Of a stretch of 64,000 nt of DNA, positions 39,345-49,200 are shown in pieces. This stretch comes from Prorocentrum cordatum (lineage: Eukaryota), in assembly GCA_963575745.1 (NCBI GenBank), contig CAUYUJ010000209.1, forward strand, positions 1-64,000, written 5' to 3'. A program made the translations under genes and the position numbers. Under the pieces are notes generated by a model, which saw only the letters and a program-made list of their open reading frames with translations, made no database searches and was not told the origin of the DNA. Position 1 is the first letter of the stretch. The number at the start of each line of letters is the position of its first letter.

Positions 39345-40840
39345 CAACCACCGCCACCACCACGATGGTCACGATCAGTGGTGATAACTAGGGGGCCACA
39401 TGCGAACCCTACCCCTACCCCCCACGATTTCTGAAGGGGGAGCGTGGGGGTTACTTTGCTCGGGAGCCCCCGAACGAAGTGAACCCCACCCCTCCCTCAG
39501 AAATCGTGGGGGGCAGGGGCATAGGGCTTGCATGTGTGGCCCCCTATAGAGGACGGCCCTGGCGCCGCCGCCGAGCGGCACGGACCGCGCGGCGTCCTTG
39601 CCGACCATGTCGGTCTTCTGCAGCTGCTTGACGCGGTCGCGCACCTTCTCCTGCCGCGCGGACGGGCGAGGCGCGAGCTCGGCTCCGCGGGCCGAGGCTC
39701 GGCGCGGGCGCCGGCGGCCGTGCGGCGAGTGCGGGGCCCGCCGCCCGGCTTCTCTGCTCCTCCCCGCCCCCTTCCGGGGGCGGCCGAGAGGGGGGCGGCT
39801 AAGAGGGGGGCGGCCAAGAGGGGGGGAGGGCGCAAATCCTGGCCGGCGGCACGTGCGCGGCCCAGGGGGGTGGGGGGGGCCAGGGACGTAGTGGAGCAAG
39901 AAGAGGCGCCGTGGAGTCTGGAAGGACATCCCGGCCCACGCCCTGATGTCCATCCCCCCCTATAGTCATCACCCCCCTTTTTGCCGCCCCCGACCCTTCC
40001 GGGGCACGTCAATGTTGGGGACTGCGCGCAGACCTCCAACACCCAGGCCTGAGTCCTCCCCCCTCCCTTCTCCCCCCTCGATCAACATTTCTTCTCGGCC
40101 ATCCGGCGCCACCGCCAGGCTCTCGCAGGGCCGTACTCCCCGGGACGACTGACTGGCGCCTCGCCTCGCCTCGCCATCCCCTTCTGAGTGGTTGTGGCCG
40201 AAGGTTGAGGGTGGGGCCGAAGGTTGAAGGAACAACCTCTGCGAGCTTCACGCTGTCTGCGACCGGCACGGTCGCTGCACCCGTGGCTCCACAAGCCCAC
40301 TCGCTCCCACCTCACCCCCTCTCCCCCGTTCCCGTTCCCCTCCGCTCCCCATCACATCCCGCCCACTCCTCCCCTCCCGCCCCCGCGCCACCCCCAAACC
40401 CCATCCCTCCACTCTCACCCCTCCTCTCCTCCTGCCCTGCCGCCCCTATTCCGATGTATGACGCGCGTACGCGGAGAAAGTGAAAACCGTCTTCTTGAAT
40501 ATCGCTGCCATCATGAATCGCGATTTGGAAGCAGGCGCTTCAAGCATTTCGAAAAACTGCGAACCAGGAGAACTGGGAGGAAAAAAAGGTCAGAGAGGAA
40601 GGAGGGGAGAGAAGAGCACAGGAGAGAGAGGATGTTTGAAGATAGAGACGGGGGGGCTGCTTCGAAGAAGATACGGAAGGATAAAGCCTGCGAGGGAGGG
40701 ATGCAGCACACGCCCGCACTTTTTACCCTCCAACGCACCACTGGTTTGCAGCCAGCAATAAAAGGGGCGCTGCAAAGACGATGACAATAACGCGCACACG
40801 CACGCGCACCCTAACTCTCTCTCTCTCTCTCTCTTTGTTG

Positions 40841-40871
<31 letters not shown>

Positions 40872-43800
40872 CCTCTATCGCTCTCTGTCTCTCTCTCTCT
40901 CTCTTGTTTTGTTGATCGCGCTCTTTATGTACAATTATCTCTCTCCCTCTCTCACGATATTTTACATAGATTTCACATATCCCTCTCTCCCTCTCTGCCC
41001 CTATCTCTCTCTCTCTCTCTCAATTATCATGTGTTGTATATGTATTATTGTCCATTTGCGTACATGTACGGTATCGTTTTTTTTTCTCTCTCTCTCTCTC
41101 TCTCACGGTCTCTCTCTCTCTCTCTCTCGCTCTCTTTCTCTATCTCTCCCTCACTCCTTCCCTCCCTCATCTATCTCGATATCTAAACATGCTCATGGAA
41201 GCATACATACATGCATGCATATCTGCGTGAATGTTTGTGCTTGAACCGAGCCGTCGCGCGCTTCCCGCGCGTTCAAGATCCAGGTGCACACCACACGCTC
41301 GGGAATTGGAGCGCGCTGCATACCTCGAGACCTGAGGCATCGACCTGCGGCACTGGCCTTCTCCCCCGCTGCTCCCCTGACCAGGGGGAGGATCGCCCAG
41401 GAGACCTCGGGCAGAGAAAACTGCTCGCCACGAGCAGCGCGCGCAGGCGGCCTCTGGGCACCGAAGCCCGATGCCACGGCCACGGACACACGCACGGCCA
41501 GCTCGGTACCAGACCGCCTGGCCTACGCGGCTGCCCAGGCTCGGCCGACGCCCCAAAAGGACGGGGGCAGGGGCCCCAGGGCACCGCCCGGCAGCGCTCC
41601 GAACCGACCAGCAAGGTCCACCCACGAGGGAGGAGGCAGGGGGGCAGGAGCCACGGGGAGCAGCAGGAGAGAGAGGAGAGGCAGGAGAGGGAGAGGGAGG
41701 CGGGAGCGAGCGTGAGAGAGAGAGGGAGAGAGAGGAGAGGAGGCGGGAGATGGAGGAGGGCAGGGCCGGGAGGCAGGGGAGAGGAGAGCGCTGGAAGGAC
41801 GAGCGGAGTGGAGAGAGGCGGATAGAGCAGGAGAGAAGGACGAGGGAGGCACATGGAGGAGGGAGGACGCATCTGGGCCAAAGGTGGCCGCGCGTGCCCC
41901 CGCAACGTCGACCCAACCATGAACAATTTGTTGATCCGCGGGTCGAGAGCGCACCTCTTCCAGTCGAAGCTAAGCGGGCCGCGCGAAGCTTAGCTGGTCA
42001 ACCCCAGGAGGAACTGATCAAAACGTTTCCCGCGTGGTGAGGATCGGGGGGGTCCTGGGCCATCTGGGAAGTTTGCTCGGGCCAATGTGGATTGTATTGG
42101 GGGCCCCTTGGGTGGTTTGGGGGCTCTCTTGGGCCGTCTTGGGCTCCTTTGGGCCGTCTCGGGGGCCTCCTGGAGCCGCCACAGGGCCATCCGAAGCCCC
42201 ACGTGGCCGTTTCGGGGCTCTCTTGGGCCTTTTCGAGCTCTCCAGGGCCCTCTGAAGCCGTCTTGGGCGCCTTTTAGGGTCATCCTGTCGTTTTGGGTCA
42301 TGATGGGCGCCCTGAGCAGAGGAAAACAAGAACCCTAAAATTATTAACATGTCTAAAGAAAGTCGATGGCTTGTTCCTGTGAGGGCCCCCCTGGACCCGT
42401 CTAGGGAGTCTGTTGGAAGCCATTCTGAGTTTTCCTGAGCCGCCTTGGAGGCGTCGAAGCTGCCTTTAGGGTCCCTCCTCGCATACTCGCGCGCGTCTTA
42501 TGCTGGATCCCGAGCCTCGCTGGGACCCCCCCGCGGCTGTCTTCAGAGCCTGGCGAAAATCCCGGGAGGCCCTGGACCCAAGCTGGAGTTTCGAGGTCCC
42601 GGCTACAAGCATATGACGTCGGATATGAAGATTTCTCGATACGGGCCGTGGTAACGAAGCTTGGGACGCACATGATTTTTAAAGACCCAGAAGGGGTCTC
42701 CAGAGGCTTCGGAGTCCAAGGGCCGCGCGCCCATGATGACCGCCGCACCACCACCCCAGCGGCACAGCGGCCAATGCCGAAGGCCAGCGTTCAGGAGCAC
42801 ACTCGGCCACCAGGCATCCACACGTCTCGGTGGGCCGCTCCCGTATTAAGTGAAGAAACGCGTCTGGAGGCGACCCCAAACCTTGCGCGGCGGCGACTAG
42901 CGATGATCACCACCTACGTCGTTGCGATACGGCGAGCACCCGAGCGCAGGCGCTACGAACGAATAGCCATCGACGCCAGCCGCCTACCCAGGCACAAGCC
43001 GCCCAGGGCCGTGCAGGACAGGCCCCCACACAGCCGCAACAACGGGGGTAGCGCCAAGTAATCACTCAGAGCCGCGCTTCAAAAACATTCAGGACATCAG
43101 AGGAGATCTGAAGACGGACAGCGTGATGCGCGTGTAAAAAAAGGCATCGCACATGCAGGCACACAGCAACGAAACCTCAGACGGAAGAGGATAGAGGAGG
43201 ATAGCGGTTGAAATCCAAGGCATCATCACAGGAGCAATGGAGAACAATGCACCCACCCATCTGACACAAATCTCGCGGAAGCGACGACAGAACTTATAGC
43301 GACGACGATCATCATAGTCTGTGGACATACCACCAAACCCATACTCGACGCAAGAGCACCCAAATATACAACCACGAGGAGGAGAATGGAAGCGAGCACG
43401 AATGCAAGCCCCACGAGTACACATACGGAGAACGTTCATAGCAAGATGTGGAGACGCAGAGGTAGAGTTGCGACGATTGTTGAGGACGAGATGAGAGAGG
43501 CCAACCCCAATAATCTCAGGCAGCCAGTTCCGTAGACGAATAAAGAGCTCCTCAAAAACGGACGGCACAGTGAGAGGGGGAGCATGAAGACGTGAGTAAA
43601 GTTTACGCTGGAATACGTCAGGCTTAATACTGGGAACGTCCACGATGCCATGGGCAGCTGCGCTGACTTAAATAGATCAGACAGGAACGACTGTTGATAC
43701 CACCTTTGCGGACCCACCACACGAGCATAGCACGCATCCACTCCACCAACGATACGCTTAAGCTCACCCCAGCAATCTCCAACGCCGGGGCATTGCGTGG

Positions 43801-46251
43801 CAAAACGTACACGGCAAGCAGTAGAAAGGGCATCGGCATCAGGATTCTCACTCGGGAACCCGAGCTGCATCTACGAAATAAGCATATTGTACGAGAAATT
43901 CGACGGACCACATGTAAGTCTCTGGGGCATATGTTCATATGTCTTCGTAACAAACGGGGAGAGAGGCTTGATCTGCATCACAAACTGCAATACACTGAGG
44001 CACACAATCTGAATATTGAACGTGGCAATCGCGGTGGAATAACCAGGCGACAGCAAACGAAGCTGGGAGCAGCGCGCAACAAATTTCTCAAGGGGCAATT
44101 GCCAGGCCTCCCCAGCAGCACATGGCCAGGTATAAAAGTCGAGGTACTTCATAAGTCCTGCGCCTCCTGACCAGAGTCTGCTTGACCCTCTCCTCCATCC
44201 CCTTCCCACATAGCAAACGGCTGCACTTGCCAACATTGAGCGCCAGCCCAATGGCTCCATCGAGCAACAGGGGCGCACGCCACACTGCTGGCAGGGAGCC
44301 GATCACATTCACCACGCCAAAGCAGTCGTCGGCATGCGCAAGGCACGGAGAGAGCTGACGAGGAAGGGTAGATTGCTTCCAACGAATAACTGGGTCGAGA
44401 CAAAGAACATACAGCGCCATTGAACTTGGGTCACCCTGCCTGACCCCGCGACTCAACGCGAAGCCCTCAAACCGCCTGCCCCCCCCCCCCCACCACCCAC
44501 CCACACACGATTTCTCTCGTACAACATGCGATAGAAGTTCAAGATCAACAATGGAATACCCGTAGCAGCAAGCACAGCGTGGAGCCAAGAATGGAGGATA
44601 TAAGGACACGCAGCCGCAAAATCAGCAGCAAAGACCGCAGCACCATCATGTCCGAGCAAGTTCCGCTGAAGGCCCCACCCCTCCGCCTGAACAACACTGG
44701 TAAGCAGCTGCCGATCCTTGACACACATCTGCAACGGAACAACGGTGTCGCGTGAAAGCTGATTGAGCGGCACGCAACGCAGGCTAGAGAGAAGCTTGGC
44801 GTCTGTGTTGGCCATAGACAAAAGGCGAGTGCAAGCACAATCCCGAACAACGTTCCCTGCACCGTCCCCCACCCGTTCTCCTTTCGGCAAGAAGACCGTC
44901 GGCAGCTCCCCCACATCATCGGGCAATGCAGAGAAGGTGCCACGCACCACTGCAAGATAAACGCTGTAATGGTATCGCGGAGCGTCTCCGGCGCGCCAGC
45001 ACCAGTGCGGAATCCCATCAGGCCCCGGCCTCGAGTTACGACGCGAGCGAATAAGCTGGTAAAACCCAGGATAAGCGACCTCCCAAACAATCGTTTCTCC
45101 ATCATCAGTGTGTCGGTCCCCAGGGACAGCGCGAACATGAGTCAGGATCTCCTCCCAATAAATACGATCCGCGGGAACGTCCGAGAATACCCCCCCCCAG
45201 TAGTTCGCAAGGCAGGCGGCAGACGCCTCCAGCGATGGACACGGGCGGGCTTGCTCGTCCTGCACGGCAAAAAGAAACGCGCGTCGCTTAAACCTCCTCC
45301 AGAGCTCCTGCCTCCTTCGTGACCTCCTCATAACATTCATGTTGGCATCAACCTTGGTCTGCTGGTCATTCGTCAACTCCTTCTCCTCCGTCGACAGGCT
45401 GATATAAAGCTCTTGGATATGGCGGAAGAAACACTGAAGGTCAGTGCACACCATCGCCTCAAGCTCAAAGAACTGTTGCAGCGATGGGTGAGCAGCAAGG
45501 GCGCGGCACACGAGATGGTCTTGCTGCGCTCGAAGTCCACGCAGCGCGACCATGCATACACTCCGGGCAGGCGGCCAAGCTCATCCGCACGATCAGTAAG
45601 GATGCGCTCTAGCGTCTCGTGGTACACATCAGACTTACTCAACCAACTCGGGACCGTGGGAGCGTCGTTTGACGTCGGGCGATACGTAGTAATCTGCACA
45701 AGCACGGGTACGTGATCAGACGAGAAGGAATCGCAGAGCTTCCCAACGACAGGAGTTTGAATGGTAAGGTCAGCAATGATGGCAGCAAGGAAAGAAGAGT
45801 GAAGTCTGTCTAGCCGTGACGAATGAACTATATTACCACCACGGAACTCGCGACGTGTATCGTCAGCCTGGAAGAACTCAATCCAGTGCCCACAGCGCCT
45901 ATCAAAGACCTCACGAAACCGAGCATCACCATGAGTCCACCCACTCCCGTCCGCAGCCATCCTACCTTCACCCTCCAGAGTAAAATGTCCAATCCCCCAG
46001 GACAATCTAAAAACAACTGCTCGACAGGCGGCGGGGCTCCTAGAATGCCAACGACAATTGCTCGTATGTGCTGAGGGCTTCGCATGTATTCGGCATGTGT
46101 ACATCATGATCGCTAAATTCCCTTGAGCATCTTGAGCCAAAACGTCAACGGATGATGATGACAATGATGATGATGCTGATGATGATGATGGTGATGATGA
46201 TGGTGGTGGTGATGGTGATGGTGATGATGGTGATGATGGTGATGATGATGC

Positions 46252-46286
<35 letters not shown>

Positions 46287-49200
46287 ATTATTATTATTAT
46301 TGTGGTGGTGGTGGTGGTAATGATGGGGAGGCAAAGGTAGAGGAGAAAGAGGAGGTGGAAGAAAAGGGAACAGTTCAAGGAGCCGCGGGAGGAGGGGCAC
46401 ATAGAGGAGGAGGAGGAGGAGGAGGAGGAGGAAGAGGAGGAGGAGGCGACGAAGGAAGAAAAGGAGGATGAGGAGAAGCGGGAACATCTGCTGGCCTTCC
46501 CAGGAGGAGCAGGAAGAGTAGCAGAAGGAGCGGAATGGATTCACTAATTGTTCGAGAGGACCGTTCATGTTAGTTACTGGTTATTGGGGTGCAGGGCGGA
46601 GGAGGAGCCAGAGGAGGGCAAGAGGAGATTAGAACACACCGAGCCCCCCGTAAAGCCCTCCTCCCGTTTCCCGCTCGTCTCCCCTCCTCCTCCTCCTCCT
46701 CCTCCTCCTCCTCCTCCTCCTCCTCCTCCTCCTCCTCCTCCTCCTCCTCCTCCTCCTCCTCCTCTCCTCCTCCTCCTCCTCTCCTCCTCCCTCCTCCTCC
46801 TCCTCCTCCTCCTCCTCCTCCTCCTCCTCCTCCTCCTCCTCCTCCTCCTCCCCTCCTCCTCCTCCTCCTCCTCCTCCCTCCTCCTCCCTCCTCCTCCTCC
46901 CCCTGCTCGCCTCTCCTCCTTCCTCTCCTCCTCCTGCCTCCTTCTTCCCCCCCTCTCTCCCCTCCCACTCCTCCTCCCCCTTGTCCTCCTTCTCTTCCTC
47001 CTCTTTCCTCCTCCTCCTCCTCCTCCCCGTCCTCCTCCTCGTCCTCACTCCTCTTCCTCCTATCCCTCCCCCTCCCTCTCCCCCCCCCCCCCCCCTGGAG
47101 CAGGGCGGCGGGCTCCTCGTGGGTCCTGTTGTCTGGCCACGTCTGGCCGCCCCACTGGTTGCCGCCCCACTGGTTGCCGCCCCACTGGTTGCCGCCCCAC
47201 TGGTTGCCGCCCCACTGGTTGCCGCCCTGCATGCCTGTCTCGGGCGTTGGTAGAACTGGGTTTAGTGGAGCCTGGTTTGGTGATCTGTACCGGGGGCGCC
47301 CCCCCGTCCCATTTCCGCTAACCGGAACTACCGTCACCCGAAAAAACGCCGGCTATGGCAGACCTGGTTCAGTGATGATCTGGCCAATTCGAAGGCTCCG
47401 GGGCCCTAGCACTAACCGGGTCCCCTTACCCGGGGTCCTGGCCATACCCGACTGTCGGGGGGCGCTCGGCGGCGCCGGCCGCACGCAGGAGGCTGCCCCG
47501 GGCAGGAGCGACCCACGGCGTGCTGCTCTCGGGGGCCAACGGGGCGGGGTAGGCAGGGCACGCGGGCACACTCGCCCGTGCTGGGGTGGGGCGGGCCCTG
47601 GTGGGCCCGCACTGAGGGTGTCTCCCGGCGGACTTAGCTGCCCCGATACGCGACACGCAACACGTAGCGTATTGATACGGAGCTCAACACGAAGACTGAA
47701 CACGTAGGTCTGACGCGATGCGTTCGCCAAGGCGTGGGCCAATACGTTGAGCCAACACGCAACGTATTGACACGGACGTTTTGAACACGGCACGTGTTGC
47801 GTACCAAAACGGGCGTATCGAGGCAGCTAAGCCGGCGGATGGTCACTCTTGCGCGCAGCAGAAGTGGGAGGGGGCCAGGAAGGGCGGAGCTGAAGGCCAG
47901 CCTGCGGGAGGGGTGCTCCCGCAGCCAACCAAGCGCGACTGGGTGGCGACAGCGGCACGGAGTTGTCCGCAGAGCTTCCCGCGGCAACGGGGCATTCGAC
48001 GCAACAGGAGGGCCCGATGCTGCTTCGCACCCTCCACAACAGTTGCATCTATTCTTCACGGATACATGTATCGATCCTGCTCGACAATTCCTTCTCCCCT
48101 TGGAACTGTCATACGCTCTGCCGCCTGACCTTTGCCCGGAGGAGAGGAGGTCGGGGATCTGCTGACCAAGATCACTCCAAACAGGGGTCAGTCAGGCCTT
48201 GCAGGATCTTGCAAGACCCTGCGGATCCTGCAGGATCCTGCGCCCAAGCCCGGGTCAGTGCAGCCCTGGCTCTGCAGGATCATGCAAGACCGGGCGCTCT
48301 GACTGCCTCCCGTTTGCTGTGTTCCCCGTCTCTCGAGCCCCGAGGAGGGGGGGGCTGCTCCAAAAGACCGGAGCCGACGGCCCCAAGCCGGTCCCGCCCT
48401 GTGTGCGATGCCCACACATGAAAGGAAATTGAGACACACAAATAAATACACACAACTAACCAGATTCCCCATATTTATTTTCCCATATGTTCTGGGTTTC
48501 TGTCTTCCCCCCCACTTCCCATATTTTCCCATATTTTCTGGGGAATCGATGGTTGATTGTGTCTGTGTGTTGTTTCCCCTCCTGACCACAGGCCTTGCAT
48601 GGCCCATTGGTCGCCGCCCCAGCCGCCCTGGCCCTGCATGCCCCACTGGGGGCAGCCGCCGCAGCCGCCGCAGCCACCTCGGGACGGGTAGGGGGCAGGA
48701 GGAGGAGGAGGAGGAGGAGGAGGAGGAGGAGGAGGAGGGAGGAGGAGGAGGAGGAGAAAGAAGGAGGAGGAGGAGGAGGAGGAGTAGAGGCGGCCCGCGG
48801 CTCTGGCCTGCCAGGGCTGCTCGGCTCTCTTGCCCACCGAGCCGGGGGGGGGGGGGGGACAGAGGGAGAGAGCTGTGCGCCGCCACCCCCGGGGGGCGCA
48901 GGCGCGCTCGCGAGATGTGCGAAAAATCGCGATCCTGACGGCGGCACGTCGGGCCACCTGGCCGCCTCTGCAGGGCGTGGGCCCACAAAAGACTGACGTC
49001 TCGCTTCTTTACTTCCGCCGGGAGTTGTGGTTGATTGGCCCCTCGCGCGGCCCGCCTGGACTTTGACTCGCCGCTGTTGCGCTCTCGCCTGCGGCTGCCG
49101 ACAAACAAAAAAAAAAAACTTCCGCCGCCTTCCGCCGACCTTCCGCCCACCCTCCGCCAGCCTCCAGTCGAACTCCGCCGAGGGCGCGACGCGCCGAAGG

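What the first reader, a model, noticed from the sequence alone, without database searches (positions are those of the whole stretch)
43089..46152. LINE copy capped by a full-length dinoflagellate spliced leader inside its endonuclease region
Seen: a (CAT)n tract is followed directly by TCCGTTGACGTTTTGGCTCAAG (19/22 to DinoSL), a second GCTCAAG, then LINE ORF2 sequence starting only ~130 nt before the GDW.F endonuclease motif. No ORF1 or N-terminal EN motifs are visible. Known: ordinary 5' truncation leaves no leader, and a complete SL in DNA marks full reverse transcription of a trans-spliced RNA. Inference: a LINE transcript was SL-trans-spliced at an internal AG and then retroposed, directly linking LINE machinery with SL-mRNA recycling. 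An alternative is an SL-RNA-gene-targeting or template-switch product.
Basis: partly seen in the sequence, partly recalled or inferred. Interest (0 to 1): 0.8.

Follow-up and report, generated by a model that had tools for sequence, protein, structure and literature searches.

The report
Dead LINE copy headed by spliced leader
A decayed jumping gene (a LINE) that lacks the first part of its cutting enzyme begins with a worn DNA copy of the short leader that dinoflagellates splice onto their messenger RNAs, so it was probably copied back into DNA from a leader-capped, shortened message.

Summary
On the minus strand, a (CAT)n tract runs straight into TCCGTTGACGTTTTGGCTCAAG at 46152-46131. This matches DinoSL at 19 of 22 bases. 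It is the only match with 3 or fewer mismatches in the window, and 0 of 100 shuffles gave one. After it come AT, a second GCTCAAG, and then LINE ORF2 sequence.

The ORF2 homology starts about 107 positions into the roughly 245-residue APE endonuclease of 25-30% identical full-length relatives. No N-terminal endonuclease sequence is found anywhere in the window. The copy is dead: it has at least five frame changes and an in-frame stop.

My best reading (about 0.55) is a retrocopy of a leader-capped LINE-derived RNA whose 5' end lay inside the endonuclease region. That makes it one more dinoflagellate 'recycled cDNA' whose parent happens to be a LINE.

Three things could not be tested, because no genome is held and no close family copy could be fetched:
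- whether the second GCTCAAG records an earlier round;
- the 3' end and target-site duplication.

Template switching, insertion next to an older leader relic, and chance remain as rivals.

Notes from this scan report leader-headed LINEs on other pieces of the same genome. I did not check those notes.

The parts
46153..46285 (-). (CAT)n-rich microsatellite that directly abuts position 1 of the leader. It is the 5' flank and the presumed target DNA. Further upstream it continues into (AAT)n, (ACC)n and (TCC)n tracts.
   Evidence: TRF 46151-46285; sequence; repeat families D3 and D4
46131..46152 (-). DinoSL-like 22-mer TCCGTTGACGTTTTGGCTCAAG. It matches the leader at 19 of 22 bases, and the 3' 12 bases are exact.
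   Evidence: Only match at 3 or fewer mismatches in the window, 0 of 100 shuffles. The exact 12-mer is also unique in the window.
46122..46130 (-). AT followed by a second GCTCAAG. It may be a shortened relic of an earlier leader, a small duplication, or native sequence. This is unresolved.
   Evidence: Sequence. The canonical 15-nt relic CCATTTTGGCTCAAG is not present as a separate copy.
45592..46121 (-). Remnant of the APE-type endonuclease, roughly its C-terminal 60%. Features: GNLAI...RIHAKP from 46122, an in-frame TAG at 46009-46007, GDWTF at 45997-45983, then SRLDR and SDHVPV in another frame.
   Evidence: tblastn aligns P0143 residues 111-273 to 46122-45637 and P0014 residues 150-162 to 46021-45983. 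Profile positions 154-285 match 45984-45592, E 1.3e-26. The relatives carry Exo_endo_phos at about residues 3-250.
44103..45580 (-). Reverse transcriptase region, split over three reading frames. It includes PGPDGIP, FLPKG, NTDAKL, ADFAAA, RQGDP, HADD and LNVGKC. One frame change lies at a G-run near 44480.
   Evidence: HMMER search with the 375-aa ORF: 687 proteins at E<=1e-3 and 183 at E<=1e-10. Pfam RVT_1 E 4e-4, 20.6 bits, below the 29.6-bit cut-off. tblastn frames.
43089..44149 (-). C-terminal part of ORF2, Cys/His-rich near its end. The stop codon is at 43091-43089.
   Evidence: tblastn aligns P0004 residues 771-886, P0010 residues 984-1088 and P0026 residues 1062-1200 to 44149-43134; ORF list.
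42676..43088 (-). 3' untranslated part. Its end is not defined. There is no poly(A) trace apart from an A5 run at 42680-42676.
   Evidence: Contigs of run X1 that resemble the stretch still cover bin 42654-42780 (depth 12.9) and almost none cover 42527-42653 (depth 0.72); sequence.

Best explanation
This is a dead retrocopy of a LINE-derived messenger RNA. An RNA holding LINE ORF2 sequence received the 22-nt dinoflagellate spliced leader at a point inside the endonuclease coding region, about 107 positions into the domain. The RNA came either from a longer element or from an already shortened copy lying in a transcribed region. The leader-capped RNA was reverse transcribed to its very 5' end and inserted at a (CAT)n microsatellite. 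The leader therefore now lies in DNA between the microsatellite and the truncated ORF2. The extra GCTCAAG between the leader and the LINE body may be what is left of a leader from an earlier round. Since insertion the copy has decayed.

Shown here: the leader-like 22-mer, its exact position at the 5' boundary of LINE homology, the missing N-terminal endonuclease part, and the decay.

Inferred: trans-splicing as the source of the leader, the acceptor site, the number of rounds, and which reverse transcriptase did the copying.
For: 1. The leader is unlikely to be chance. It matches at 19 of 22 bases with an exact 12-base 3' end, it is the only such site in 128 kb of both strands, and 0 of 100 shuffles gave one.
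2. It sits at the boundary. LINE homology starts at 46122, nine bases after the leader (P0143 residue 111), and nothing upstream resembles the missing part.
3. The 5' end is truly internal. In the 6 of 12 relatives scanned with Pfam where the endonuclease starts at residues 3-22, it ends at 219-253. In the other 6 it starts at residues 52-338.
4. It does not look like an SL RNA gene. No GT donor follows CAAG, a microsatellite directly precedes leader position 1, and there is no other SL-like site in the window.
5. It is not an LTR element. No flanking long direct repeats were found.
6. The class is established in print. DNA copies of DinoSL upstream of genes mark retroposed mRNAs (passages of PMC5585692; PMC12014239). 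Song et al. report the GO term 'RNA-dependent DNA replication' enriched among such retrogenes.
7. Leads only, not checked by me: notes of this scan report leader-headed LINEs on other pieces of the same genome.
Against: - There is only one copy. No family member with the same or an intact 5' end could be fetched, so the acceptor AG and recurrence are untested.
- The relic is not the canonical 15-nt CCATTTTGGCTCAAG. It is only 7 nt and is preceded by an unexplained AT.
- No poly(A) tail and no convincing TSD were found.
- The three mismatches cluster in the 5' half of the leader.
- In the contigs of run X1, the bins at the junction (46083-46200) have no cover, so there is no sign of a subfamily sharing this 5' end. 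Cover is thin, so this is weak.
- The link to the window organism's own leader rests on the canonical DinoSL from the literature, not on RNA of this organism.
Confidence: 0.55

Rival explanations
1. Template-switch chimera. During target-primed reverse transcription of a LINE RNA, the enzyme left its template inside the endonuclease region. It then finished on the 5' end of another leader-bearing RNA, as in U6/L1 chimeras of mammals. This would fuse a leader to a truncated LINE without any trans-splicing of LINE RNA.
For: The nine bases between the leader and the LINE body (AT plus GCTCAAG) could be the start of a second RNA that itself carried a relic. LINE-1 chimeras with other RNAs are documented (PMC13174262; search listing and abstract only).
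Against: A switch onto free SL RNA should also copy its intron, and none is present: CAAG is followed by AT, not GT. A switch onto another mRNA would have to land within 9 nt of its leader.
Confidence: 0.13
2. Coincidental neighbours. An ordinary 5'-truncated LINE, produced by abortive reverse transcription, inserted immediately downstream of an older leader relic left by a decayed retrogene.
For: 5' truncation is the common fate of LINEs (general knowledge). Among the 36 long relatives, several predicted proteins also start inside the endonuclease, for example P0013 at the GDFN motif and P0121. The leader is worn (3 of 22 mismatches) and could be older than the LINE.
Against: The insertion would have to land within about 0-9 bp of the relic. 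No recognisable host gene follows the LINE on the same strand: across ORFs from the window were scanned with Pfam, and the only matches were 3 far below their cut-offs.
Confidence: 0.1
3. The leader-like stretch is native to the element. It could be a family-specific sequence or a built-in leader mimic at the start of a short subfamily, or it could be a plain chance resemblance.
For: The frame through the 22-mer is open and continuous with the LINE frame. One relative (P0062) has VLA...GSLA where the window reads VLAQDAQGNLA (compared by eye).
Against: The chance expectation is about 1e-3 per window (and my arithmetic). The GR that 11 of 12 relatives keep upstream of this stretch is not there, and nothing further upstream is homologous.
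Confidence: 0.1
4. A LINE that targets SL RNA genes, in the manner of SLACS/CZAR/CRE of trypanosomatids.
For: A leader sequence lies next to a non-LTR element.
Against: The 22-nt leader is uninterrupted. The endonuclease is the APE type. There is no SL gene array, no intron, and no other SL-like site in 64 kb. A microsatellite lies where an SL gene promoter would be.
Confidence: 0.02

Closest known systems
DinoSL-relic retrocopies of dinoflagellates ('recycled processed cDNAs'). Slamovits and Keeling 2008 is recalled and appears as cited in PMC6050394 and PMC12014239. I read passages of Song et al. 2017 (PMC5585692).
   Same: A DNA copy of the trans-spliced leader sits at the 5' end of a sequence that was copied through RNA. 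A possible second, partial leader follows it.
   Different: The parent is a retrotransposon, not a host gene. The leader sits inside a coding domain, so the copy is truncated. The relic is 7 nt, not the canonical 15 nt. No poly(A) tail or TSD was seen.
APE-type non-LTR retrotransposons (LINEs) with a single ORF that carries Exo_endo_phos and RVT_1
   Same: It has the endonuclease C-terminal motifs, the RT motifs and a Cys/His-rich C-terminus. The closest full-length proteins share this layout.
   Different: It lacks about 107 N-terminal endonuclease positions. It is broken by frame changes and stops. It is only 25-34% identical to any long relative found.
U6/L1 and other LINE-1 chimeras made by template switching (PMC13174262, abstract only)
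   Same: A small-RNA-derived 5' piece is fused to a 5'-truncated LINE.
   Different: Only the 22-nt exon part of the SL RNA is present, not the whole small RNA with its 3' end.
SL-gene-specific non-LTR elements of trypanosomatids (SLACS, CZAR, CRE1; recalled)
   Same: A non-LTR element lies next to spliced-leader sequence.
   Different: Those elements interrupt the leader exon of real SL genes and use a restriction-like endonuclease. Here the leader is whole, solitary and followed by an APE-type element.

Membership tests
APE-type non-LTR retrotransposon (LINE) | Reverse transcriptase domain of the non-LTR type | tested here: met
   HMMER search with the 375-aa ORF found 183 proteins at E<=1e-10. 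All 12 relatives scanned carry RVT_1. The window ORF itself gives RVT_1 at E 4e-4, below the gathering score because of the breaks.
APE-type non-LTR retrotransposon (LINE) | Complete apurinic-type endonuclease N-terminal to the RT | tested here: not met
   Only profile positions from about 108/134 to 285 are present. Positions 1-133 have no match, so this is a truncated member, not an autonomous one.
APE-type non-LTR retrotransposon (LINE) | No long terminal repeats | tested here: met
   Only microsatellite families appear among the direct repeats of 40500-48500.
APE-type non-LTR retrotransposon (LINE) | Target-site duplication and a defined 3' tail | tested here: inconclusive
   GTCATCAT at 42740-42733 matches the 5' flank, but loose ends of related contigs appear to stay homologous beyond it (compared by eye). 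The A5 run at 42680-42676 is too short to count.
DinoSL-relic retrocopy | DinoSL sequence encoded in DNA at the 5' end of the copied sequence | tested here: met
   19 of 22 bases match at 46152-46131, nine bases before LINE homology starts.
DinoSL-relic retrocopy | Canonical relic CCATTTTGGCTCAAG after a full leader, which marks repeated rounds | tested here: not met
   Only AT plus GCTCAAG follows. The 15-mer search finds just the leader itself.
DinoSL-relic retrocopy | A parent copy without the leader exists in the same genome | not testable with these tools
   No genome is held. Related copies at 80-95% likeness exist in run X1, but none covers the junction.
DinoSL-relic retrocopy | The host organism trans-splices this leader | not testable with these tools
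   No RNA holder is listed. This rests on the canonical leader from the literature and on unchecked scan notes.
SL-gene-targeting non-LTR elements (SLACS/CZAR type) | Insertion inside the leader exon of an SL RNA gene array, with a restriction-like endonuclease | tested here: not met
   The leader is uninterrupted, it is the only SL-like site in 64 kb, and the endonuclease is the APE type.
Small-RNA/LINE template-switch chimera (U6/L1 type) | The 5' piece is the whole small RNA up to its 3' end | tested here: not met
   Only the 22-nt exon is present. CAAG is followed by AT, not by a GT-initiated intron. Rfam finds nothing at the site, although I did not check whether Rfam holds a DinoSL RNA family.

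The most novel reading that the evidence does not exclude
In this dinoflagellate-type genome, trans-splicing at cryptic acceptors inside LINE coding sequence yields shortened, leader-capped LINE messages that are copied back into DNA, possibly more than once. If so, some '5'-truncated' LINEs here would be products of RNA processing and not of abortive reverse transcription. LINE reverse transcriptase would be shown to copy leader-capped RNA to its last base. That would make it the long-sought engine of dinoflagellate retrogene formation.
Probability: 0.3. Interest if true: 0.6.

Novelty: new member of a known kind. Interest (0 to 1): 0.4.

Why it matters
Dinoflagellates hold very many retrogenes that carry leader relics. 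The papers I read say the reverse transcriptase responsible is unknown, with either LINEs or copia elements proposed (passages of PMC5585692 and PMC6050394).

A LINE sequence that itself carries the leader shows two things. LINE-derived RNA enters the same path as host mRNAs. And a reverse transcriptase reached the capped 5' end of that RNA.

A leader placed inside the endonuclease region adds the idea that trans-splicing can set the 5' end of LINE copies. One dead copy cannot prove either point. A genome-wide census of leader-to-LINE junctions would make both testable.

My three literature searches listed no paper whose title or abstract describes leader-headed LINEs in dinoflagellates. I read passages of only six of the listed papers. 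Subscription journals and supplements were not seen.

Tried and rejected
- Whole genome: none is held.
- Other copies in the window: none. blastn of 42401-46700 against the window gave only itself and a microsatellite match. tblastn with 36 relatives also found no other copy.
- Close family copies elsewhere:
  - Metagenome contigs gave one 1.1-kb fragment, 50% identity over 23 residues.
  - Viral contigs gave none with the single protein and none with alignment A1.
  - Genome contigs gave 5 distant loci (19-46% identity) with no SL-like site at 4 or fewer mismatches.
- Protein search with the junction/endonuclease ORF: no hit among near-length proteins or shorter proteins.
- Exact DinoSL 21-mer in viral contigs: 119 stretches. 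None of the 137 distinct sites I extracted is followed within 5 kb by a relative of this LINE. No locus holds one.
- Sequencing runs: no RNA holder is listed.
- Laid contigs of 4 runs: run X1 has exact pieces and related copies at 80-95% likeness over the body. Bins 46083-46200 have no cover, so the junction could not be compared.
- TSD: GTCATCAT (42740-42733) was considered and dropped (see the membership test). The A5 run at 42680-42676 is too weak.
- Rfam over 40000-49000: only sub-threshold microRNA and snoRNA noise on the simple repeats.
- Pfam on 67 ORFs of the window: nothing above cut-off, so no host gene context is known.
- Scan notes by sequence or by relatives: nothing. Nearby notes: nothing.
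- The truncated CTCAAG pattern in PMC12014239 concerns transcripts whose leading DinoSL is cut short. I therefore do not use it as a precedent for the 7-nt relic here.
Full report
**What is there**

Read on the minus strand, a compound microsatellite ends in (CAT)n (TRF 46151-46285). It runs without a gap into TCCGTTGACGTTTTGGCTCAAG at 46152-46131. Then come AT (46130-46129), GCTCAAG (46128-46122) and GGAATTTAGCG...

The 22-mer differs from the dinoflagellate spliced leader DCCGTAGCCATTTTGGCTCAAG at positions 6, 8 and 10. The leader is taken as printed in PMC5585692 and PMC8045281 (passages). The last 12 bases of the 22-mer are exact.

It is the only match to the 21-base core at 3 or fewer mismatches on either strand of the window, and none of 100 dinucleotide-preserving shuffles gave a match. 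The exact 12-mer is also unique in the window. My own arithmetic with equal base frequencies gives about 1e-3 such matches per 64-kb window by chance.

**The LINE**

The 375-aa open frame at 44453-45580 finds 687 proteins at E<=1e-3 and 183 at E<=1e-10 among 1.84 billion representatives. Long relatives are 24-35% identical in that search.

All 12 long relatives that I scanned carry Exo_endo_phos and RVT_1. In 6 of them the endonuclease starts at residues 3-22 of the protein and ends at 219-253. In the other 6 it starts at residues 52-338.

tblastn with 36 relatives of 900 residues or more hits the window only between 46122 and 43134, in changing frames:
- endonuclease C-terminal part: 45993-45580;
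- reverse transcriptase: 45553-44498, then 44459-44103;
- C-terminal region: down to 43134.

ORF2 ends at the stop codon 43091-43089. The reading switches frame at least five times: near 45985, 45580, 44480 (a G-run), 44130 and 43700. There is also an in-frame TAG at 46009-46007 inside SSCF*IVLGDWTF. The copy is therefore dead. Pfam on the window's own pieces sees only a sub-threshold RVT_1 match (E 4e-4).

**Where the copy starts**

I built a profile of the endonuclease from 12 relatives (291 positions). It matches the window at positions 154-285 (45984-45592, E 1.3e-26) and weakly at 134-154 (the GDWTF motif, 45997-45983). It matches nothing for positions 1-133 in the three minus-strand frames from 47400 to 45300.

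The best pairwise alignment joins residue 111 of P0143 to 46122. It pairs GNLAIMMYTCRIHAKP with GNICLV----NIHVEP. The LINE body therefore begins about 107 positions into a domain of roughly 245 residues, nine bases after the leader.

No N-terminal endonuclease sequence lies elsewhere in the window. There are no flanking long direct repeats.

**What it is not**

It does not look like an SL RNA gene. CAAG is followed by AT, not by a GT donor. A microsatellite stands where a promoter would be. The window has no other SL-like site. Rfam finds nothing at the site, although I did not check whether Rfam holds a family for this RNA.

This also argues against an SL-gene-targeting element of the trypanosomatid kind (recalled). 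Those elements interrupt the leader exon and carry a restriction-like endonuclease.

A native origin of the 22-mer is unlikely on the statistics. It is also unlikely because the glycine-arginine pair that 11 of 12 relatives keep upstream of this stretch is missing, and nothing further upstream is homologous. One relative does show a faint VLA...GSLA resemblance (by eye). Only intact copies of the same family can settle this.

**Most likely mechanism**

DNA-encoded leaders are the accepted mark of mRNAs that were trans-spliced, reverse transcribed and reinserted (passages of PMC5585692, PMC6050394 and PMC12014239). The simplest reading is the same path for a LINE-derived RNA whose 5' end, set by leader addition, lay inside the endonuclease region.

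The source RNA may have been a full-length element spliced at a cryptic acceptor. It may equally have been an already shortened copy lying in a transcribed region. I cannot tell which.

The second GCTCAAG may be a shortened relic of an earlier leader, which would mean two rounds. It is not the canonical 15-nt relic, and the AT before it is unexplained. A 9-bp duplication or native sequence remains possible.

Because the copy lacks the N-terminal endonuclease part, it need not have been made by its own protein.

**Rivals**

- A template switch onto another capped RNA: 0.13.
- An ordinary truncated insertion next to an older relic: 0.10.
- Native sequence, a leader mimic, or chance: 0.10.
- An SL-gene-targeting element: 0.02.

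**What could not be done**

No genome is held. No close family copy was found in metagenome, viral or prokaryote-genome contigs. None was found among proteins when I searched with the junction ORF.

Four public runs were laid:
- Run X1 holds 23% of the sampled words. It gives exact pieces (for example 43973-44376 and 45377-45585 with 0 differences) and related copies. Of its 70 laid contigs, 5 are at 99% likeness or more, 3 at 95-99%, 22 at 90-95% and 40 below 90%.
- The bins 46083-46200 have no cover, so the junction could not be compared.
- Runs X3 and X4 lie only on the G-run near 44480.

No RNA holder is listed. The internal-AG claim, recurrence of the junction, expression, the 3' end and the TSD therefore stay open.

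The candidate TSD GTCATCAT (42740-42733) was dropped. Loose ends of related contigs at 42733 still resemble the window beyond that point (compared by eye). Related cover falls off between bins 42654-42780 and 42527-42653. Only an A5 run (42680-42676) lies there.

**Context and prior notes**

None of 67 ORFs from across the window reaches a Pfam cut-off. No host gene can therefore be placed next to the copy.

Notes of this scan report leader-headed LINEs, some said to be intact and enclosed by TSDs, on other pieces of the same genome. They also report leader relics in other mobile elements. I did not check those notes. Look-ups by sequence found no look-alike of this element.

In print, my three searches listed no paper whose title or abstract describes leader-headed LINEs in dinoflagellates, and I read passages of only six of the listed papers. 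The nearest statement is that 'RNA-dependent DNA replication' genes are enriched among leader-tagged retrogenes, and that the responsible reverse transcriptase is unknown (PMC5585692 and PMC6050394, passages). Supplements and subscription journals were not seen.

**Verdict**

This is one more dinoflagellate leader-tagged retrocopy. Its parent is a LINE, and its leader lies inside the endonuclease region. It is interesting as a pointer to a genome-wide test, but on its own it is an old, single, dead copy.

Noticed in passing
L002-L120 (IMG/VR contigs), e.g. L025 5001/5051/5101, L061, L062: The exact DinoSL 21-mer occurs in 119 stretches of viral contigs. Most are in bins labelled as giant-virus MAGs. 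The 29 of these loci that I printed have GC 0.16-0.27 (mean 0.23 over all 120 loci then held), against 0.61 for the window. Some carry several leaders 50 bp apart. It is open whether these are mis-binned AT-rich dinoflagellate or syndinean DNA, or viral genomes that carry the leader.
   Followed up: partly
P0024 and P0009: The closest short fragments to the window's reverse transcriptase are 77% identical over 64 aa and 60% identical over 94 aa. Their source labels them as a Pyramimonas sp. culture transcriptome. That is an odd label for relatives of a LINE from a genome that carries the dinoflagellate leader.
   Followed up: no
window 46151-47100: About 1 kb of compound microsatellite lies upstream of the copy. 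On the minus strand it reads (CAT)n, (AAT)n, (ACC)n and (TCC)n, then a roughly 380-bp (GAG)n tract (TRF 46679-47061). Scan notes say other LINEs of this genome sit inside (TCC)n. Pyrimidine-rich tracts also lie downstream at 41650-41865.
   Followed up: partly
window 47146-47227: A perfect 15-bp tandem repeat GCCGCCCCACTGGTT, 5.5 copies at 100% identity.
   Followed up: no
window 44464-44509: A run of 13 G inside the RT region coincides with a frame change. It collects many short contigs from runs X3 and X4 (summed depth 342 and 768), which looks like a low-complexity artefact and not homology.
   Followed up: partly
window 42733-42794 and 43145-43196: Two short stretches are the best-kept parts of related copies in runs X1 and X2. 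Contigs match only there and run on as looser homologs on both sides.
   Followed up: partly
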